Shown here piece after piece: positions 23,290 to 33,953 of a stretch of DNA of 42,353 bases (position 1 is its first letter; every line of letters begins with the position of its first letter). The DNA comes from a virus (taxonomy: Duplodnaviria; Heunggongvirae; Uroviricota; Caudoviricetes): IMG/VR virus record IMGVR_UViG_2654587736_000008. The stretch is one strand, 5' to 3'. A program made the position numbers and the translations under genes. The notes below the pieces were generated by a model that did not search any database, was not told the DNA's origin, and saw only the letters and a list, made by a program, of their open reading frames with translations.

Positions 23290-23808
23290 CTACTTCTTCA
23301 GAAATGATTCGATGAATTCACGTCGAGGATGACGATAGTTCAGAATATCTTCTGGCATCCTCATAAAGCGGTTGTTGCCGTCTTTGGCAGTAACAAAACA
23401 GCTGTGAACTCCGCAGACATCCGTTTTGATCGTGTCGCTATACTCAAAAAGCAACTGAGCCATCTTCTCTTGCCATTCTGGAGGCATAGCCTCCATGAAT
23501 ACTCGCGGCATCACGCAGAACGACGCATGCGTAAGACCAAACCACAGTTGCAGGTCTTTACGATATTCTTCATCCATCGTCTTTACCTTTGTTGCAATAA
23601 AAAGCCCCGCGAATGCGAGGCTAAATCCTAGTGTTTGTGATGACTGGCTCTTATCTAAACGCAGCCCCTTACCGCGCGCCAAATGCTCAACTTTAAGCAT
23701 CAGCAATGAGATGTTTAATCTGGATTCACTCCAGAAGTGATCACCACCCTGTCTACAGAGCCAGATGTGAAGGATGATGAGTAAAATTATCTCTATCATC
23801 GAAGGCAT
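23290..23808 (-). CDS. Hypothetical protein in the bor position (moron candidate), N-terminal hydrophobic segment
   Basis: 172-aa ORF after Rz; relatively AT-rich; no recognisable family. Confidence 0.45.
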
Positions 23809-24263
23809 TGCGTCCTGATATATTCCTGAAGCGTTCTCAGTGCTGTCTGGTCTCTGATGATTCCGTCCCGGATACCGAGAACGTTTCGTCCAGCAACTGG
23901 AGAGAGTTCGACGGTGGCATCATTGCCCATGCCGGAGGCGCTGGAGGTTTCGGCTGAGGATGGCACAGAGCATTTTCCTTTGACGAGCACCCGACCACCA
24001 TTATCAAGCTTGCGCCGAAGAGCATCATTTTTAGCTTTCGCATCAGCCAACTCCTTCGTGTATTTAGCATCGAGTACATCAGCAGCACGCTGGCGTTGCT
24101 GCATGTCAGTAATGGTGGCGGTCGCCTGCTTCAGCTCACTGACTTTTTTATCACGCTGTTCTTTGTAGGCGATGGCGTTATCACGGTAATGATTGACCGC
24201 CCACGACAGGCAGACGATGGTGCAGATAACCAGAGTATAAATAATCGCTGCGACTCTGCTCAC
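23796..24263 (-). CDS. Rz: Spanin inner-membrane subunit Rz (i-spanin)
   Basis: N-terminal TM ([19 protein letters not shown]), coiled-coil body, C-terminal Cys; GTG start overlapping endolysin stop (TTG at 24278 also possible). Confidence 0.8.
23837..24043 (-). CDS. Rz1: Spanin outer-membrane lipoprotein Rz1 (o-spanin), embedded in Rz in the +1 frame
   Basis: [21 protein letters not shown] lipobox followed by Pro-rich [11 protein letters not shown]. Confidence 0.8.
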
Positions 24264-24793
24264 TGATCTATCCCCCAACAGGCTAATGCGCTTTCCTGGT
24301 CACGACGAATAACCTGTCCATAGCAGTTATTTGAACGTATGCGGCAATCGCGCCCACCATCTTTTATCCACCAGCGAATCGCCTCGCATGCGCCCTTACG
24401 ATCACCGGCATTCAGCCGCTTATAAAACGTCGACGGGAAACACTTACCGGGGCCAATGTTATAGGGACAGAATGACGCTATACCCGCTTTCTGTGGTTCG
24501 GTCAGTGGTACTTTAATATTGCGCTCTACCCATGCCAGCGCCTTATCACGTTCAATAGCGTTAACCTGGTCGCATTTTTCCTTCGACAGCTTCATTCCCG
24601 GTATGACGGGCTTACCATCCACCATTGTGGCACCCCGACAGATGGTCCAGATGCCGGCCCCATCGCGGTATGCCGTTGTGTGGTTACCTTCTTTTTCATC
24701 CAGAAACTGGTCGAGAATATCAGGCGCGGGCGCACCGACGGCAATCAGTGCCAGAACGGCAGCCGACAGGCCGTATCTGATTTTTGCGTTCAT
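24260..24793 (-). CDS. R: SAR endolysin (T4-lysozyme-like, GH24)
   Basis: 177 aa; N-terminal signal-anchor-release-like segment ([16 protein letters not shown]), then lysozyme-like body resembling phage 21 R. Confidence 0.8.
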
Positions 24794-24856
24794 GGATATT
24801 TATCAGGATTTATCGGTTTCTGCCCACGGACAGGTTTATCTGTTCCGGTCAGTGAC

Positions 24857-25207
24857 TTAAGGTTGTGATTCCGGAGGAGTCTTCAGAGAACCAGTAATTC
24901 TTCCTGGTAGCTTTCCTTTGTAGGTTATCCACACATTCTGCGCCTCTAAAATTACGGGGCGCTTTTCCGGCGACTGCTCATCCCCTTCACATAACCCGGC
25001 AGCAACATCCAGGAAGACCTGTCTGATGCTCCTTCTGGCTGCTGCCTCATAAAACTCCAGCGCGGCACCTTCAACACGGTCCAGCGAGATGTCCAGGTCA
25101 AAAATTTCACCGTCAAAGCGTTTTTTGTCCCGTAACGCTAAAGTTACCGTAACTTTATTCTCAAAATTGCGGATCCCTTTCACAATCACTTCATAGTTTT
25201 GAGTCAT
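24857..25207 (-). CDS. Hypothetical protein inserted between holin and endolysin (116 aa)
   Basis: SD GGGGAGAG upstream of ATG 25207, 4 nt after the holin stop; soluble, acidic; no recognisable family. Confidence 0.55.
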   Translation of the reverse strand: MTQNYEVIVKGIRNFENKVTVTLALRDKKRFDGEIFDLDISLDRVEGAALEFYEAAARRSIRQVFLDVAAGLCEGDEQSPEKRPVILEAQNVWITYKGKLPGRITGSLKTPPESQP

Positions 25208-25211
25208 TGAA

Positions 25212-25427
25212 TTACTCTCCCCGTGCAGCCTTACGCTTGTCTTCTTTAATCTTGAAATAAAGGTTTGTCAGATACGTCAGCAAGCCAAATACCAGACTAC
25301 CCAGCACACCTATTGCCGCCCACTGTGAGGGCGTGACTTTATCGAGCAACTGTAAAAACCAGTACCCGGCACTACCTGCTGAGGTGCCATAGGCGACACC
25401 CGTTGTTAACTTATCCATGGATTTCAT
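25212..25427 (-). CDS. S: Pinholin, phage 21 S-like (class II holin) with dual-start motif
   Basis: [29 protein letters not shown]...[22 protein letters not shown]; two Met codons (M1, M4) as in S21 holin/antiholin. Confidence 0.85.
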
Positions 25428-25462: not shown

Positions 25463-25488
25463 AAATAAAAAGGCCACCTGACGTGGCC
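25463..25488 (-). terminator. Intrinsic terminator between methyltransferase gene and holin
   Basis: Minus strand GGCCAC-GTCAG-GTGGCC followed by TTTTTATTT. Confidence 0.65.
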
Positions 25489-25494
25489 ACCAGA

Positions 25495-26547
25495 TTATTT
25501 CCCCACCAGCTCGTTTATCTCTTTCACTGTCTGGTTAAACCGCTCTGACTCAAGCTCAACACCTAAGGCCCGACGCCCCAGCGCCATTGCTGCTTTTATT
25601 GTGGAACCGGATCCCATAAAAAAATCAGCAACCAGATCACCTGGTCGACTACTGGCATTGATTATTTGCCTGAGCATATCCGCCGGTTTCTCACACGGAT
25701 GTTTCCCCGGGTAGAACTGAACGGGTTTATGCATCCAGACATCGGTATAAGGCACGGAGACTGATACGGAGAAATAGCGCCGGAGAGATTTAAACTCATC
25801 CAGCAATTCAGAATATTTGCGATTCAGTGAATCATAAGATGCCACCAGCTGGTGGTGTGGTTGTTCCAGTTGTTGTTCCTGAAACTTCTCTGCCGCTATA
25901 CGGGAAAACAGTGCCTGTAACTTCCGATAGTCAGCCTCATTCGGCAACTGCCACTGACTGGCACCAAACCAGTGGGAAACCATATTTTTCTTACCTGTGG
26001 CTTCGGCAATTTGTTTTGCCGTTATACCCAGTTCGGCACGAGCATCCCTGAAATACGAAATCAGCGGTGCCATTATGTGCTGTTTGAGTTCCCTTTCTTT
26101 TGCCGCATAGCCGTCACTTTTGCCGCGATATGGCCCCTGGTAATGTTCAGCAAACAGAACGCGCTCTGTGGCAGGAAAATATGCACGCAGACTTTCTTTA
26201 TTACACCCATTCCAACGTCCGGACGGCTTCGCCCAGATGATATGGTTAAGCACGTTGAAACGTTCACGCATCATGATCTCAATATCAGATGCCAGGCGAT
26301 GCCCACAGAACAGGTAAAGGCTTCCGGCAGGTTTTAACACCCGCCAGAACTGGGCCAGACAGTGGTCCAGCCACTTAAGGTAATCTTCGTCCCCTTTCCA
26401 CTGATTGTCCCAGCCGTTGGGTTTCACCTTGAAGTACGGCGGATCGGTAACAATCAGGTCAATGGAATCATCAGGCAGGGACTGAATAAAATGCAGGCAA
26501 TCAGCGTTGATTAAATCAACACTGTTTATTTTTACAGTATTTTTCAT
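25495..26547 (-). CDS. DNA N6-adenine methyltransferase, beta-class (DPPY before FxGxG), orphan
   Basis: 350 aa; motif IV VTDPPYF near the N-terminus and SAM-binding DFFMGSGST near the C-terminus; no adjacent restriction gene. Confidence 0.8.
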
Positions 26548-27107: not shown

Positions 27108-27172
27108 CGGTTGATTATTCATCTCCAATAAAAATAATTGTGTGGGTATACCCTTAGCAATGGATAAGAAAC

Positions 27173-27619
27173 ATGAATAAAATGACTGTACTATTACTTA
27201 GCGCAACTATCATTTCAGGTTGTACTTCTTCCGTACCATTGATAAAGAAAACTCAATCAGGAAAACCTGAGGGGGTTTATCAAAATACGACAAAAGATAA
27301 AGTCAAAGATGCCCTTGTGAATTACTGCAATAGTAGAGGGTTGATAATTTACAACGCGGATAACAGCAGTGTTATATGTGGTAAAGAACTGGAAGGCGGC
27401 TCTGCTGTTTTTGGACAAATGTTAATCGGAAATGCCTATTCAACAACCCCGGTATCAAAAGTCAGATTTACTATCGCTCAAGTTAATAACGATACAAAAG
27501 TGTGGGCCGATATGTGGATGGAAACTCAAATGGCAATGGGGCAAGTACAACAAATGGCTATAACAGACAACGCAAGCAAAAACACTATCCAACAACGTCT
27601 TGATGAATTAAAACCTTAA
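27173..27619 (+). CDS. Lipoprotein, hypothetical (moron on opposite strand)
   Basis: 148 aa; signal peptide with lipobox LLSATIISGC; gene and flanks are AT-rich; opposite strand to Q and the late genes. Confidence 0.7.
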   Translation: MNKMTVLLLSATIISGCTSSVPLIKKTQSGKPEGVYQNTTKDKVKDALVNYCNSRGLIIYNADNSSVICGKELEGGSAVFGQMLIGNAYSTTPVSKVRFTIAQVNNDTKVWADMWMETQMAMGQVQQMAITDNASKNTIQQRLDELKP

Positions 27620-27703: not shown

Positions 27704-28069
27704 CTAACGATCCATCTCTAGCTCAATTTCTAACATCATTAACATGCCATCAACTACACCTTCAGCCTTTTGCAATAAACGCCCAACCCAGCAATCAGAA
27801 CGCCCATGTTTACGGGCAAGCGCCATAAACGTCATACCACCTACATAATAATCCACTAATAAATCGTGCAAATCGCTGTTGTTCTTTTTCAGGCGAGCCA
27901 TGCACCCACAAATGATCATCGCGTCATCGTCACAACATTGCGGGCGGGATTTTACTTTTGAAGGGATTAGTCCTTTAAATCCTGCAGCAATAGACGACCA
28001 GGTGACATCCTCGTGATTATTTGCCACCCATGCCCCCCAACGTTCAAGAACCATTTGAATATCACGCAT
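27704..28069 (-). CDS. quuD: Late-gene antiterminator Q (phage 21 / QuuD-type)
   Basis: [14 protein letters not shown]...[18 protein letters not shown]...[11 protein letters not shown], as remembered for DLP12 QuuD; ATG 28069 with SD GGAG (ORF track begins at a TTG 28084). Confidence 0.8.
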
Positions 28070-28086
28070 CAACTTTCTCCACAAAA

Positions 28087-32805: not shown

Positions 32806-33953
32806 TTGCGCCCCCTTACCTCTGAAGGGTTCAGCGACAAATTTATGAGGCAGGCCAGTGCCGAAGCATCATTAATATAGTCATACAAGCTAACAGCCAG
32901 CGGAGATTCGGCTTTTGCCAACATAGGATAAAGCTGCTGCAGCCAGACCTGATGAATTGATGAAATGTAGGAATAGAGAACGCTGGCGTTATGTGCAACG
33001 TCGCTCAGTACAGAGGGATTTGAAAGCTGTTTCTCCATCTGGTTAAAGGCATTGATGTATGCCTCTTTGAACTGGGCAGCACGTTTACCCGTGAAACCCA
33101 TAGCAAGAAACGCAAAGCCGTCGCGGGTTATTTGATAGCAAGGTAGTTTGCGGCCTGTGCAATCGGTGTAATCACTCGCCGAAAAATTGCGGGAAGTGAA
33201 TGATGCAGAGCATTCAAGCGTGCGGATCTTTTTCAGTACATCGTCATGACGTTTGGAGAAGAAGTTGGCAACAGCCAGGGATGAAGTAACAGCCTGACCA
33301 TCAACGATGGCAATTTCAGGTTGAGTGAGGGTTGGGATCGTAGCCATGATGGCAGCCTCTTTGGTGATTTTTAATAACTCACCACCAAGGCTTTCCACGA
33401 CCTTATTGGTGGTGAGACGTACAGGGGTGGAAATACCGGTCACCAAAGAACCCGGCCCAACCGAAGTTGGCCCTGCACGCCCCACCATAATTTGGGCGTA
33501 ATGCTGCTCATTACACAAAAAAACCGCAAGAGCGCGGTTGTGCGCTTTGGTGAATTCCGAGTTTCCACGCCCGGCACCCGCTTTATAAGGTGCCTGAACA
33601 GTGTAACGTCCCGGAATGGCAGAATCAATGTGCTGGTGGTCCTTCACACTCAACAAAATCACGCCTGAATTTCCACAAAGGACTAAAGCACTCATGCGGG
33701 TAGTCTTTGCGAAGATAGATAACGCGCTGTGTTTCTGGCTCCCAACGAATAACATGGACATAAAGCCCTCTTCCGTCACGAAACCAGCGGTTAAGTTCCT
33801 GCACAACTCGCCCCCCACAGTCAGGTAAAGTTCTCTGTGGTTACTTACAGCCAAGTGATTTGGTAATCTGCATTCATGCCGTAACAACAGGTGTTCAGCG
33901 ACACTGACCACCAGCTGTTGCGACAAACGGTTATTTGCCGTTAAACTGTTCAT
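32802..33953 (-). CDS. Rha-family phage regulatory protein with a ~200-aa N-terminal extension (alternative start ATG 33348)
   Basis: pRha domain (IAIVDGQAVTSSLAVANFFSKRHDDVLKKIRTL...YQITRDGFAFLAMGFTGKRAAQFKEAYINAFNQMEKQL) in the C-terminal half; the ORF is open to ATG 33953, which overlaps the upstream stop (ATGA). Confidence 0.6.
   Translation of the reverse strand: MNSLTANNRLSQQLVVSVAEHLLLRHECRLPNHLAVSNHRELYLTVGGELCRNLTAGFVTEEGFMSMLFVGSQKHSALSIFAKTTRMSALVLCGNSGVILLSVKDHQHIDSAIPGRYTVQAPYKAGAGRGNSEFTKAHNRALAVFLCNEQHYAQIMVGRAGPTSVGPGSLVTGISTPVRLTTNKVVESLGGELLKITKEAAIMATIPTLTQPEIAIVDGQAVTSSLAVANFFSKRHDDVLKKIRTLECSASFTSRNFSASDYTDCTGRKLPCYQITRDGFAFLAMGFTGKRAAQFKEAYINAFNQMEKQLSNPSVLSDVAHNASVLYSYISSIHQVWLQQLYPMLAKAESPLAVSLYDYINDASALACLINLSLNPSEVRGRK

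What the first reader, a model, noticed from the sequence alone, without database searches (positions are those of the whole stretch)
24260..25427. Extra 116-aa gene inserted inside the holin-endolysin pair of a pinholin/SAR lysis cassette
S21-type pinholins are normally followed directly by the SAR endolysin. Here a soluble acidic 116-aa ORF with its own SD begins 4 nt after the holin stop and ends 63 nt before the endolysin. Co-expression with lysis timing genes suggests a lysis regulator or a cargo gene expressed only late; neither can be decided from sequence.
Basis: partly seen in the sequence, partly recalled or inferred. Interest (0 to 1): 0.6.

Follow-up and report, generated by a model that had tools for sequence, protein, structure and literature searches.

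The report
Common YdfR gene in prophage lysis cassette
The "extra" 116-codon gene between the holin and the lysozyme is real, but it is a copy of ydfR (DUF1327), an already annotated gene of unknown function that sits at this exact spot in prophages of most E. coli genomes, so the arrangement is ordinary.

Summary
On the minus strand lie an S21-type pinholin (25427..25212), a 116-aa ORF starting 4 nt after the holin stop (25207..24857), a 63-nt spacer, a SAR-type lysozyme (24793..24260) and Rz/Rz1.

The ORF is not new. It matches Pfam DUF1327 (143 bits) and its first 74 residues are 80% identical to E. coli K-12 YdfR, which sits between essQ and rrrQ in the Qin prophage with the same 4-nt junction. 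RefSeq annotates near-identical copies as "YdfR family protein". DNA matches occur in 4305 of 5426 complete E. coli genomes.

Every YdfR copy I examined lies in this slot, followed by the RrrQ-type lysozyme. The gene is dispensable for the cassette: phage 933W has a related holin (82% identical) and a 93%-identical lysozyme with an empty site, and phage-21-type cassettes with an identical holin carry a different endolysin and no ydfR.

The N-terminal domain (three strands plus a helix) is conserved under moderate purifying selection (dN/dS about 0.3). The C-terminal tail is mosaic. No fold or defence-system match was found.

Function is unknown. The only biochemistry (RNA Biol 2026) shows K-12 YdfR residues 1-72 binding the catalytic half of RNase E and co-purifying with RNA.

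Verdict: already known, low interest.

The parts
25472..25488 (-). Terminator-like hairpin (GGCCACGTCAGGTGGCC followed by a T-run) between the DNA methylase stop and the holin start. It is the upstream boundary of the S-ydfR-R-Rz block.
   Evidence: Pattern scan. It overlaps the GTG-extended holin ORF (25490), which favours ATG 25427 as the true holin start.
25212..25427 (-). S21-type pinholin, 71 aa, with the dual-start motif MKSM.
   Evidence: PF04971 at 121 bits. phrog_9876 and phrog_20, both holin. 94% identical to K-12 EssQ and 82% to 933W S.
25215..25222 (-). Shine-Dalgarno GGGGAGAG inside the last holin codons. It serves ydfR here. In the empty-site phage 933W the same sequence serves the endolysin.
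   Evidence: Sequence. Three-way alignment of window, 933W and K-12.
24986..25207 (-). ydfR N-terminal domain (aa 1-74), the conserved core of DUF1327. Predicted as three antiparallel strands plus one long helix. It corresponds to the RNase E-binding fragment of K-12 YdfR (aa 1-72).
   Evidence: PF07041 E 2.8e-42. 80% identical to K-12 YdfR over aa 1-74. AF2 block-mean pLDDT 59-85 over aa 1-70. dN/dS median 0.29. PMC13232886.
24857..24985 (-). ydfR C-terminal tail (aa 75-116, through the stop codon). One of at least nine alternative tails in the family. No confident predicted structure.
   Evidence: AF2 pLDDT below 50 for aa 72-116. Length classes of 103, 104, 114, 116, 174, 176, 183, 206 and 268 aa. 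A mosaic joint lies between the N-domain and the tail.
24794..24856 (-). 63-nt spacer. Its last ~23 nt (CCGATAAATCCTGATAAATATCC) form a conserved, Shine-Dalgarno-less, A/U-rich leader of the endolysin.
   Evidence: No structure beyond chance (z -0.42). The leader is conserved in 13 cassette length classes. Only the ~20 nt nearest the endolysin ATG are shared with K-12.
24260..24793 (-). RrrQ-type lysozyme, 177 aa, with a SAR-like N-terminus ([18 protein letters not shown]) and an E-x8-D-x5-T catalytic motif.
   Evidence: PF00959 at 88.8 bits. 93% identical to K-12 RrrQ and 93% to 933W R. Only 32-36% identical to the R21-type endolysin.
23796..24278 (-). Rz i-spanin. The start is probably GTG 24263, overlapping the lysozyme stop. 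The embedded Rz1 o-spanin is at about 24043..23837 ([19 protein letters not shown]...).
   Evidence: PF03245 at 98.5 bits. phrog_13. ORF list. PhiR40_1 annotation.
23603..23622 (-). Terminator-like hairpin downstream of Rz. It is the downstream boundary of the block.
   Evidence: Pattern scan.

Best explanation
The ORF is a ydfR (DUF1327) gene. It is an accessory, late-transcribed, cytoplasmic protein gene carried in the lysis cassettes of Escherichia/Shigella lambdoid prophages, always 4 nt downstream of an S21-type holin and upstream of an RrrQ-type SAR lysozyme. It is not part of the core lysis machinery.

Most likely mechanism (inferred): the conserved N-terminal domain binds RNA and/or the catalytic half of RNase E, as shown for the K-12 orthologue. 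When the Q-antiterminated late transcript is made, YdfR would then alter RNA processing or decay, of host RNAs or of the late/lysis transcript itself.

A cis effect goes with it and can be read directly from the sequence. ydfR occupies the Shine-Dalgarno site in the holin 3' end, which drives the endolysin in empty-site phages. The endolysin is left behind a conserved leader with no Shine-Dalgarno sequence. The presence of ydfR therefore probably changes how much, or when, endolysin is translated.

Shown: identity, position, linkage, dispensability, purifying selection, co-transcription layout. Published for the orthologue: RNase E and RNA binding, no toxicity. Inferred: the role in infection.
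For: Identity:
- PF07041 at 143 bits.
- 80% identical to K-12 YdfR over aa 1-74.
- RefSeq name "YdfR family protein" at 99.7% DNA identity.
- Same layout in K-12 Qin, including the 4-nt junction.

Fixed slot:
- 79 of 79 informative IMG/VR loci with this lysozyme type carry YdfR between holin and lysozyme.
- All 8 full-length species-representative hits show the same layout.

Accessory status:
- 933W has an empty site, with a lysozyme 93% identical.
- 66 of 76 loci with an identical holin carry an R21-type endolysin and no ydfR.

Real gene: dN/dS 0.29.

Co-transcription: no promoter-like or terminator-like site inside the block.

Biochemistry of the orthologue (PMC13232886):
- A two-hybrid screen recovered YdfR 1-72.
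- Strep-YdfR co-purifies Rne1-598.
- DNase-resistant nucleic acid is enriched in the eluate.
- Overexpression is not toxic.

Cis effect: the endolysin leader lacks a Shine-Dalgarno sequence in all 13 ydfR-bearing length classes, whereas the 933W endolysin uses the holin-end GGGGAGAG.
Against: The RNase E evidence is limited.
- Full-length YdfR gave a two-hybrid signal only with Rne1-597.
- Co-purification could be bridged by RNA, and the authors do not exclude a contaminant.
- Overexpression changed few transcripts.

The K-12 copy comes from a cryptic prophage and has an unrelated C-tail.

The strict positional link to the lysozyme fits a lysis-related role at least as well.

No experiment in an actual infection exists.
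Confidence: 0.35

Rival explanations
1. YdfR is a lysis-timing or endolysin-specific factor. It would be a cytoplasmic protein acting on the cytoplasmic face of the pinholin, like a cytoplasmic antiholin, or on the pre-export SAR lysozyme, like a chaperone.
For: It is found only between holin and lysozyme. It is translationally placed right after the holin (4-nt gap with a shared Shine-Dalgarno sequence), and in K-12 it overlaps the lysozyme start. It is linked to the RrrQ-type lysozyme in 79 of 79 loci and is never seen with the R21 type. It is small, soluble and mildly acidic. Precedents recalled from the literature, not tested here, are the T4 RIII cytoplasmic antiholin and the mycobacteriophage Ms6 Gp1 endolysin chaperone.
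Against: 933W uses a 93%-identical lysozyme and an 82%-identical holin without it. An identical holin works in cassettes without it. The YdfR N-domain diverges to about 50% identity while the lysozyme stays at 91% or more, so there is no co-variation. The linkage may simply reflect adjacency plus sampling conditioned on lysozyme identity. There is no sequence or fold match to any antiholin or chaperone.
Confidence: 0.25
2. The protein itself has little or no role. ydfR persists as hitch-hiking mosaic DNA, and any effect comes in cis, by spacing the endolysin away from the holin's initiation site.
For: The region between the N-domain and the lysozyme ATG is hypervariable. ATG-to-ATG distance ranges from 307 to 1259 nt, with tails of 103-268 aa and spacers from -4 to 452 nt. 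Three of 95 copies are disrupted or frameshifted. The family is confined to Escherichia and Shigella. Overexpression gives almost no phenotype. The endolysin leader lacks a Shine-Dalgarno sequence in all ydfR cassettes.
Against: The N-domain is intact in 92 of 95 loci, and dN/dS is about 0.3 even between copies with dS above 1.5. Twenty-one positions are invariant down to about 60% identity, clustered in R44-A57 (RxEGAxLEFYE). That is not how non-functional coding DNA behaves.
Confidence: 0.15
3. YdfR is a conflict gene: an anti-defence factor, a superinfection-exclusion factor, or a factor that benefits the lysogen.
For: A constant N-domain joined to swappable C-tails resembles polymorphic effector architectures. 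It evolves fast relative to its neighbours. One overexpression screen reports a 3-fold rise in streptomycin MIC (PMC12924614).
Against: There is no PADLOC match. It has no promoter or terminator of its own. The K-12 copy has almost no reads in growing cells, so expression in the lysogen is unlikely. No data link it to any defence system.
Confidence: 0.1

Closest known systems
E. coli K-12 YdfR (b1555, P76160), Qin cryptic prophage, within essQ-ydfR-rrrQ-rzpQ/rzoQ
   Same: Same family (PF07041). The N-domain is 80% identical. The gene order is identical and so is the 4-nt holin-ydfR junction. The holin is 94% identical and the lysozyme 93%.
   Different: The C-terminal tails are unrelated: a 29-aa K-12 tail against a 42-aa tail here. 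K-12 ydfR overlaps the rrrQ start (ATGA), whereas here a 63-nt spacer follows.
YdfR-family genes of sequenced lambdoid phages (PhiR40_1, mEp460, the vB_Eco-xxxR series, BP-4795, YYZ-2008, Stx1a and Stx2c phages)
   Same: PhiR40_1 and PhiR55_1 carry the whole cassette at 98.1% DNA identity, with the ORF noted as YdfR family. The other phages carry holin-YdfR-lysozyme in the same order.
   Different: The Stx1a- and Stx2c-type copies are only about 54% identical in the N-domain.
Phage 933W lysis cassette (S-R-ant-Rz/Rz1)
   Same: Same holin family (82% identical) and same lysozyme type (93%). It is also an example of an extra gene inside a lysis cassette: ant lies between R and Rz.
   Different: The S-R junction is empty. 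R starts 4 nt after the S stop and uses the Shine-Dalgarno sequence that serves ydfR in the window.
Phage 21 / DLP12-type S21-R21 pinholin and SAR-endolysin pair
   Same: The holin protein is identical or nearly identical (99-100%) in 66 IMG/VR loci.
   Different: The endolysin is a different lineage (32-36% identical, beginning MPPSLRK...), its ATG overlaps the holin stop, and there is no ydfR.
Accessory lysis regulators and RNase E-directed phage proteins (T4 RIII, P1 LydB, Mu gp25 releasin, Ms6 Gp1; phiKZ Dip, T7 gp0.7). Recalled from the literature as functional analogies only.
   Same: They are small phage proteins encoded in or near lysis or late genes. They either tune holin or endolysin action or target RNase E.

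Membership tests
YdfR / DUF1327 (PF07041) | Match to the Pfam model above the gathering score | tested here: met
   143.3 bits against a cut-off of 25, E 2.8e-42, aa 1-112. Also phrog_406 and phrog_2091 at E ~1e-67.
YdfR / DUF1327 (PF07041) | Direct homology to the name-giving K-12 protein | tested here: met
   80% identity and 96% positives over aa 1-74. The tails are not alignable.
YdfR / DUF1327 (PF07041) | Synteny: between an S21-type holin and an RrrQ-type lysozyme | tested here: met
   The same order and the same 4-nt junction occur in K-12, in 79 of 79 IMG/VR loci and in 8 of 8 full-length species-representative loci.
YdfR / DUF1327 (PF07041) | Binding of the RNase E N-terminal half and of RNA (reported for K-12 YdfR) | not testable with these tools
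   Published only for the K-12 protein (PMC13232886). The fragment that binds, aa 1-72, is the part conserved in the window protein.
S21-type pinholin (PF04971), the neighbouring gene | Pfam match, dual-start motif and about 70 aa with two hydrophobic segments | tested here: met
   121 bits. The MKSM N-terminus and two hydrophobic stretches are visible in the sequence. Pinhole formation itself is not testable.
SAR endolysin (T4-lysozyme fold), the neighbouring gene | Phage_lysozyme domain, E-x8-D-x5-T motif and a weakly hydrophobic Gly/Ala-rich N-terminal segment | tested here: met
   PF00959 at 88.8 bits. [16 protein letters not shown] and [18 protein letters not shown] are read from the translation. 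Signal-anchor-release behaviour is not testable here.
Moron (autonomous insert with its own promoter and terminator) | A promoter upstream and a terminator downstream of the inserted gene | tested here: not met
   No promoter-like or terminator-like site lies between the holin ATG and the Rz stop. ydfR shares the holin-end Shine-Dalgarno sequence.
Known anti-phage defence proteins (PADLOC) | Match to any PADLOC model | tested here: not met
   No hits at E 0.1 or below for the window protein, K-12 YdfR and three long variants.
Known antiholins and endolysin chaperones (T4 RIII, P1 LydB, Ms6 Gp1) | Sequence or fold similarity to a characterised member | tested here: not met

The most novel reading that the evidence does not exclude
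YdfR could be a phage adaptor, like RapZ, that binds RNA and recruits or blocks RNase E on the lysis transcript. The target would be the conserved, Shine-Dalgarno-less, A/U-rich leader (GAUAAAU-CCU-GAUAAAU-AUCC-AUG) in front of the SAR lysozyme. Endolysin synthesis would then be timed post-transcriptionally, adding a third layer of lysis control beside the holin clock and SAR release. The evidence does not exclude this. YdfR always accompanies this leader, the orthologue binds RNase E and RNA, and the empty-site phage 933W lacks both ydfR and the leader.
Probability: 0.1. Interest if true: 0.6.

Novelty: already known. Interest (0 to 1): 0.22.

Why it matters
As a discovery it matters little. 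The gene, its family and its position are already in RefSeq, Pfam and the K-12 genome map.

Its residual value is as a reminder of an overlooked gene. One of the commonest prophage genes in E. coli (about 70-80% of complete genomes) sits in the middle of the best-studied type of lysis cassette and still has no known function. A two-hybrid, pull-down and transcriptome study (RNA Biol 2026) recovered it as an RNase E and RNA binder and described its neighbours, which are lysis genes, as genes of unknown function.

Three observations give a concrete and cheap experiment in inducible lysogens such as mEp460 or PhiR40_1:
- ydfR is strictly linked to one lysozyme lineage.
- It takes over the holin-end ribosome-binding site.
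- It leaves the lysozyme with a conserved leader that lacks a Shine-Dalgarno sequence.

Tried and rejected
- **PDB sequence search.** No hit.
- **NCBIfam.** No model matched.
- **PADLOC.** No hit.
- **Exhaustive HMMER search of 1.84 billion representatives.** Only 64 hits, all DUF1327 fragments or variants. The one exception was a 3128-aa repetitive protein, P0161, matching aa 6-58 six times. Pfam shows it as a repeat-rich protein (15 G2F stretches), so I treated it as a repeat artefact.
- **Structured RNA in the 63-nt spacer.** Rejected (z -0.42).
- **Constraint on the nearly invariant C-tail.** Rejected as evidence. The tail DNA is nearly identical (dS about 0.1) where the N-domains differ at dS above 1.5, and the loci were chosen for lysozyme identity. 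This shows a mosaic joint, not selection.
- **The GTG-extended 92-aa holin ORF (25490).** Rejected, because it runs through a terminator-like hairpin.
- **Literature searches.** Searches on essQ/rrrQ and on pinholin/SAR/lambdoid found nothing about this gene.
Full report
**1. Observation**

The region lies on the minus strand. The ORF list and raw sequence give this order:
- a 350-aa DNA methylase (26547..25495)
- a terminator-like hairpin (25488..25472)
- a 71-aa holin from ATG 25427 to 25212, beginning MKSM
- a 116-aa ORF from ATG 25207 to the stop at 24857
- a 63-nt spacer
- a 177-aa lysozyme (24793..24260)
- Rz (to 23796) with an embedded Rz1 lipoprotein frame
- a second terminator-like hairpin (23622..23603)

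The 116-aa ORF starts 4 nt (TTCA) after the holin stop. The sequence GGGGAGAG, inside the last holin codons, is a Shine-Dalgarno sequence at the right distance from its ATG.

The protein is hydrophilic (GRAVY -0.39) with no membrane segment. It is only mildly acidic: pI 5.55, with 18 acidic against 17 basic residues.

Pfam confirms the neighbours. The holin matches PF04971 (phage 21 holin S, 121 bits), the lysozyme PF00959, Rz PF03245 and the methylase PF01555.

**2. What the ORF is**

It matches Pfam DUF1327 (PF07041) at 143 bits, E 2.8e-42. It also matches the unknown-function families phrog_406 and phrog_2091 at about 1e-67.

Megablast of the ORF against 5426 complete E. coli genomes finds it in 4305 genomes (8344 places). 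The best matches are 99.7% identical and annotated "YdfR family protein".

In K-12 MG1655 the Qin cryptic prophage carries essQ-ydfR-rrrQ-rzpQ/rzoQ in the same order, with the same 4-nt holin-ydfR gap. Identities to the window are:
- YdfR: 80% over residues 1-74, with an unrelated tail
- EssQ: 94% to the holin
- RrrQ: 93% to the lysozyme

Sequenced phages carry the same cassette. PhiR40_1 and PhiR55_1 match at 98.1% over all 1705 nt. mEp460, a series of vB_Eco phages, BP-4795, YYZ-2008 and many Stx1a and Stx2c phages also have it. The window is a PhiR40_1-like lambdoid prophage, in which the cassette follows Q, a small opposite-strand lipoprotein gene and the methylase.

**3. Is it a real gene?**

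Among the loci fetched, 89 N-domain copies matched full-length and ungapped, giving 38 distinct DNA sequences. Pairwise Nei-Gojobori dN/dS has a median of 0.29 over 380 pairs with dS above 0.1, and stays near 0.3 for pairs with dS above 1.5.

Twenty-one positions are invariant across sequences down to about 60% identity. They cluster in R44, E46, G47, A48, L50, E51, F52, Y53, E54 and A57, at the end of strand 3 and the start of the helix. Separately, 3 of 95 loci surveyed carry a disrupted or frameshifted ORF.

**4. Where it occurs and what it is linked to**

The family is narrow.
- A word-indexed search of 5.8 billion proteins gave 318 hits. Every hit that carries a source name is from Escherichia or Shigella, apart from one record labelled Enterococcus faecalis.
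- An exhaustive HMMER pass over 1.84 billion representatives gave only 64 hits.
- In one genome per GTDB species, only E. coli, E. ruysiae, E. albertii and Shigella were hit. Two MAGs labelled Veillonella and Bacillota also matched, and their contigs look like E. coli Qin DNA.

Every copy I looked at starts 4 nt after an S21-type holin and is followed by the RrrQ-type lysozyme.

Taking 80 IMG/VR loci by lysozyme similarity (95% or more), 79 of 79 informative loci have the YdfR N-domain in between.

Taking 80 loci by holin similarity (99-100% identical) gives a different picture:
- 66 have no ydfR. The holin stop overlaps the ATG of a different endolysin, of the R21/RrrD type beginning MPPSLRK, which is 32-36% identical to the window's lysozyme.
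- 10 have ydfR, and in all 10 it is followed by the RrrQ-type lysozyme.

So ydfR travels with the lysozyme lineage, not with the holin allele.

The link is not obligatory. Phage 933W has S (82% identical), a 4-nt gap, and then R (93% identical to the window's lysozyme) with no ydfR. In that phage an ant gene sits between R and Rz.

Counts of DNA matches in complete E. coli genomes are:

| Query | Places | Genomes |
|---|---|---|
| Lysozyme gene | 10,319 | 4390 |
| Close ydfR N-domain DNA | 4859 | 3640 |
| Whole ORF | 8344 | 4305 |

The occupied junction is therefore the common state for this lysozyme type, not an oddity.

**5. Anatomy of the protein and of the variable region**

AlphaFold2, with a 40-sequence alignment, predicts strands at 5-14, 18-27 and 33-43 and a helix at 50-73. 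Block-mean pLDDT is 59-85 over residues 1-70. Residues 72-116 fall below 50.

The family has one constant N-domain and many tails. Protein lengths are 103, 104, 114, 116, 174, 176, 183, 206 and 268 aa, with spacers of -4 to 452 nt before the lysozyme. The 116-aa form seen here is the commonest in my sample, at 28 of 95 loci.

A mosaic joint lies inside the gene. Loci whose N-domains differ at dS 1.6-2.0 share nearly identical tail DNA (dS about 0.1). Because those loci were selected on lysozyme identity, this says nothing about selection on the tail.

The right-hand edge of the variable region is constant. In all 13 length classes the lysozyme ATG is preceded by CCGATAAATCCTGATAAATATCC or a close variant. 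This block has no Shine-Dalgarno-like sequence. In 933W the lysozyme instead uses the GGGGAGAG in the holin 3' end. So ydfR has taken the strong initiation site, and the lysozyme sits behind an A/U-rich leader without a Shine-Dalgarno sequence. In K-12 the lysozyme is coupled to ydfR through an ATGA overlap.

The 63-nt spacer is not more structured than shuffled sequence (z -0.42).

**6. Function**

Nothing in the fold libraries helps.
- Foldseek against PDB: best E 0.13.
- BFVD: only uncharacterised proteins at E 0.03 or above.
- No PDB sequence hit, no NCBIfam model and no PADLOC model.

The literature is thin. ydfR is listed as uncharacterised in the 2024 y-ome survey (PMC11551758). Only one held paper mentions DUF1327. 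An overexpression screen lists a 3-fold rise in streptomycin MIC (PMC12924614).

One study bears on mechanism: Gopel et al., RNA Biol 2026 (PMC13232886).
- A two-hybrid screen with RNase G as bait recovered YdfR 1-72 three times.
- That fragment interacted with RNase G, full-length RNase E and Rne1-597. Full-length YdfR interacted only with Rne1-597.
- Strep-YdfR co-purified FLAG-Rne1-598.
- The eluate contained much DNase-resistant nucleic acid.
- Overexpression was not toxic and changed few transcripts.

The fragment that binds is the domain conserved in the window protein. The authors describe the co-transcribed neighbours as genes of unknown function. They are the holin, the lysozyme and the spanins. 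The authors also cite a genetic screen in which ydfR appeared important for envelope integrity. My inference is that a cassette inserted in ydfR could have driven the downstream lysozyme gene, which would be an artefact. I could not check this.

**7. Explanations**

I commit, at about 0.35, to an accessory late cytoplasmic protein whose N-domain binds RNA and/or the catalytic half of RNase E and so alters RNA fate late in infection. The insertion also has a cis consequence, in that it changes how the lysozyme is translated.

The rivals are:
- a genuine lysis-timing or lysozyme-specific factor (0.25). This fits the strict slot and the lysozyme linkage. Against it are 933W and the lack of co-variation.
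- a hitch-hiker with only cis effects (0.15). Purifying selection on the N-domain argues against this.
- a conflict or lysogen-benefit gene (0.1). Against it are the absence of its own promoter, the lack of expression in lysogens and the lack of any defence-model hit.

The remaining probability goes to a function not listed here.

**8. Comparison and novelty**

The ORF passes every testable criterion for YdfR/DUF1327 membership: the model score, homology to the K-12 protein and synteny. It fails the moron criterion, because it has no promoter or terminator of its own.

The arrangement has been in the K-12 genome map and in RefSeq and Pfam for years. The finding is therefore already known as an object, and its function remains open.

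- the linkage pattern: ydfR goes with the RrrQ lysozyme lineage, not the holin allele
- the empty-site comparison with 933W
- the constant-N, variable-tail architecture with an internal mosaic joint
- the observation that ydfR displaces the lysozyme from the holin-end ribosome-binding site onto a conserved leader that lacks a Shine-Dalgarno sequence

These make a simple genetic test worthwhile but do not make the finding surprising. Interest 0.22.

Noticed in passing
window 24794-24816 (minus strand), and loci L082-L161: The lysozyme ATG is preceded in all 13 ydfR-bearing cassette classes by the same leader, CCGATAAATCCTGATAAATATCC, which has no Shine-Dalgarno sequence and contains GATAAAT twice. 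The sequence further upstream varies. 933W, which lacks ydfR, lacks this leader and uses the holin-end Shine-Dalgarno sequence instead.
   Followed up: partly
window 25472-25488 (-) and 23603-23622 (-): Strong terminator-like hairpins bracket the S-ydfR-R-Rz block. The upstream one lies between the methylase stop and the holin start, so the lysis genes depend on Q-mediated read-through past the methylase insert.
   Followed up: partly
window 25495-26547 (-): A 350-aa N6/N4 DNA methylase (PF01555, 146 bits) is inserted between the Q/late-promoter region and the holin, with a terminator-like hairpin after it. It is annotated as DNA adenine methylase in PhiR40_1.
   Followed up: no
window 27173-27619 (+): A 148-aa ORF on the opposite strand lies between Q (27704..28084, -) and the methylase. 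It has a lipoprotein signal (LLSATIISGC). Promoter-like sites at 27111-27183 (+) and a hairpin on the opposite (-) strand at 27661-27642, just past its stop codon, flank it, so it looks like a moron. It is "hypothetical" in PhiR40_1.
   Followed up: no
window 33405-33492 (-) and 33517-33593 (-): Rfam hits above the gathering score: C4 antisense RNA (83.6 bits) and isrK Hfq-binding RNA (62.5 bits). These are the P1/P7-type antirepressor-control RNAs found in some lambdoid prophages.
   Followed up: no
L162 (phage 933W) 5855-6424: 933W carries a different extra gene inside its lysis cassette, ant, between R and Rz. Extra genes inside lambdoid lysis cassettes are therefore not confined to the S-R junction.
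   Followed up: no
L167 (MAG labelled Veillonella parvula) and L169 (MAG labelled Bacillota): Contigs of two Firmicutes MAGs carry an E. coli Qin-like holin-ydfR-lysozyme cassette. The holin is 94% identical to the window's and the lysozyme 93%. This is most likely binning contamination rather than a wider host range.
   Followed up: partly
protein P0161 (3128 aa): A giant repetitive protein matches YdfR residues 6-58 in six stretches at 33% identity (E 1e-8). Pfam shows 15 G2F-like stretches and other repeat domains. It is probably a beta-repeat or composition match, not homology.
   Followed up: partly
PMC13232886 (literature): The 2026 RNase E interactor paper describes ydfR's co-transcribed neighbours as genes of unknown function, although they are the Qin holin, lysozyme and spanin genes. 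The lysis-cassette context of its YdfR hit seems to have gone unnoticed.
   Followed up: yes
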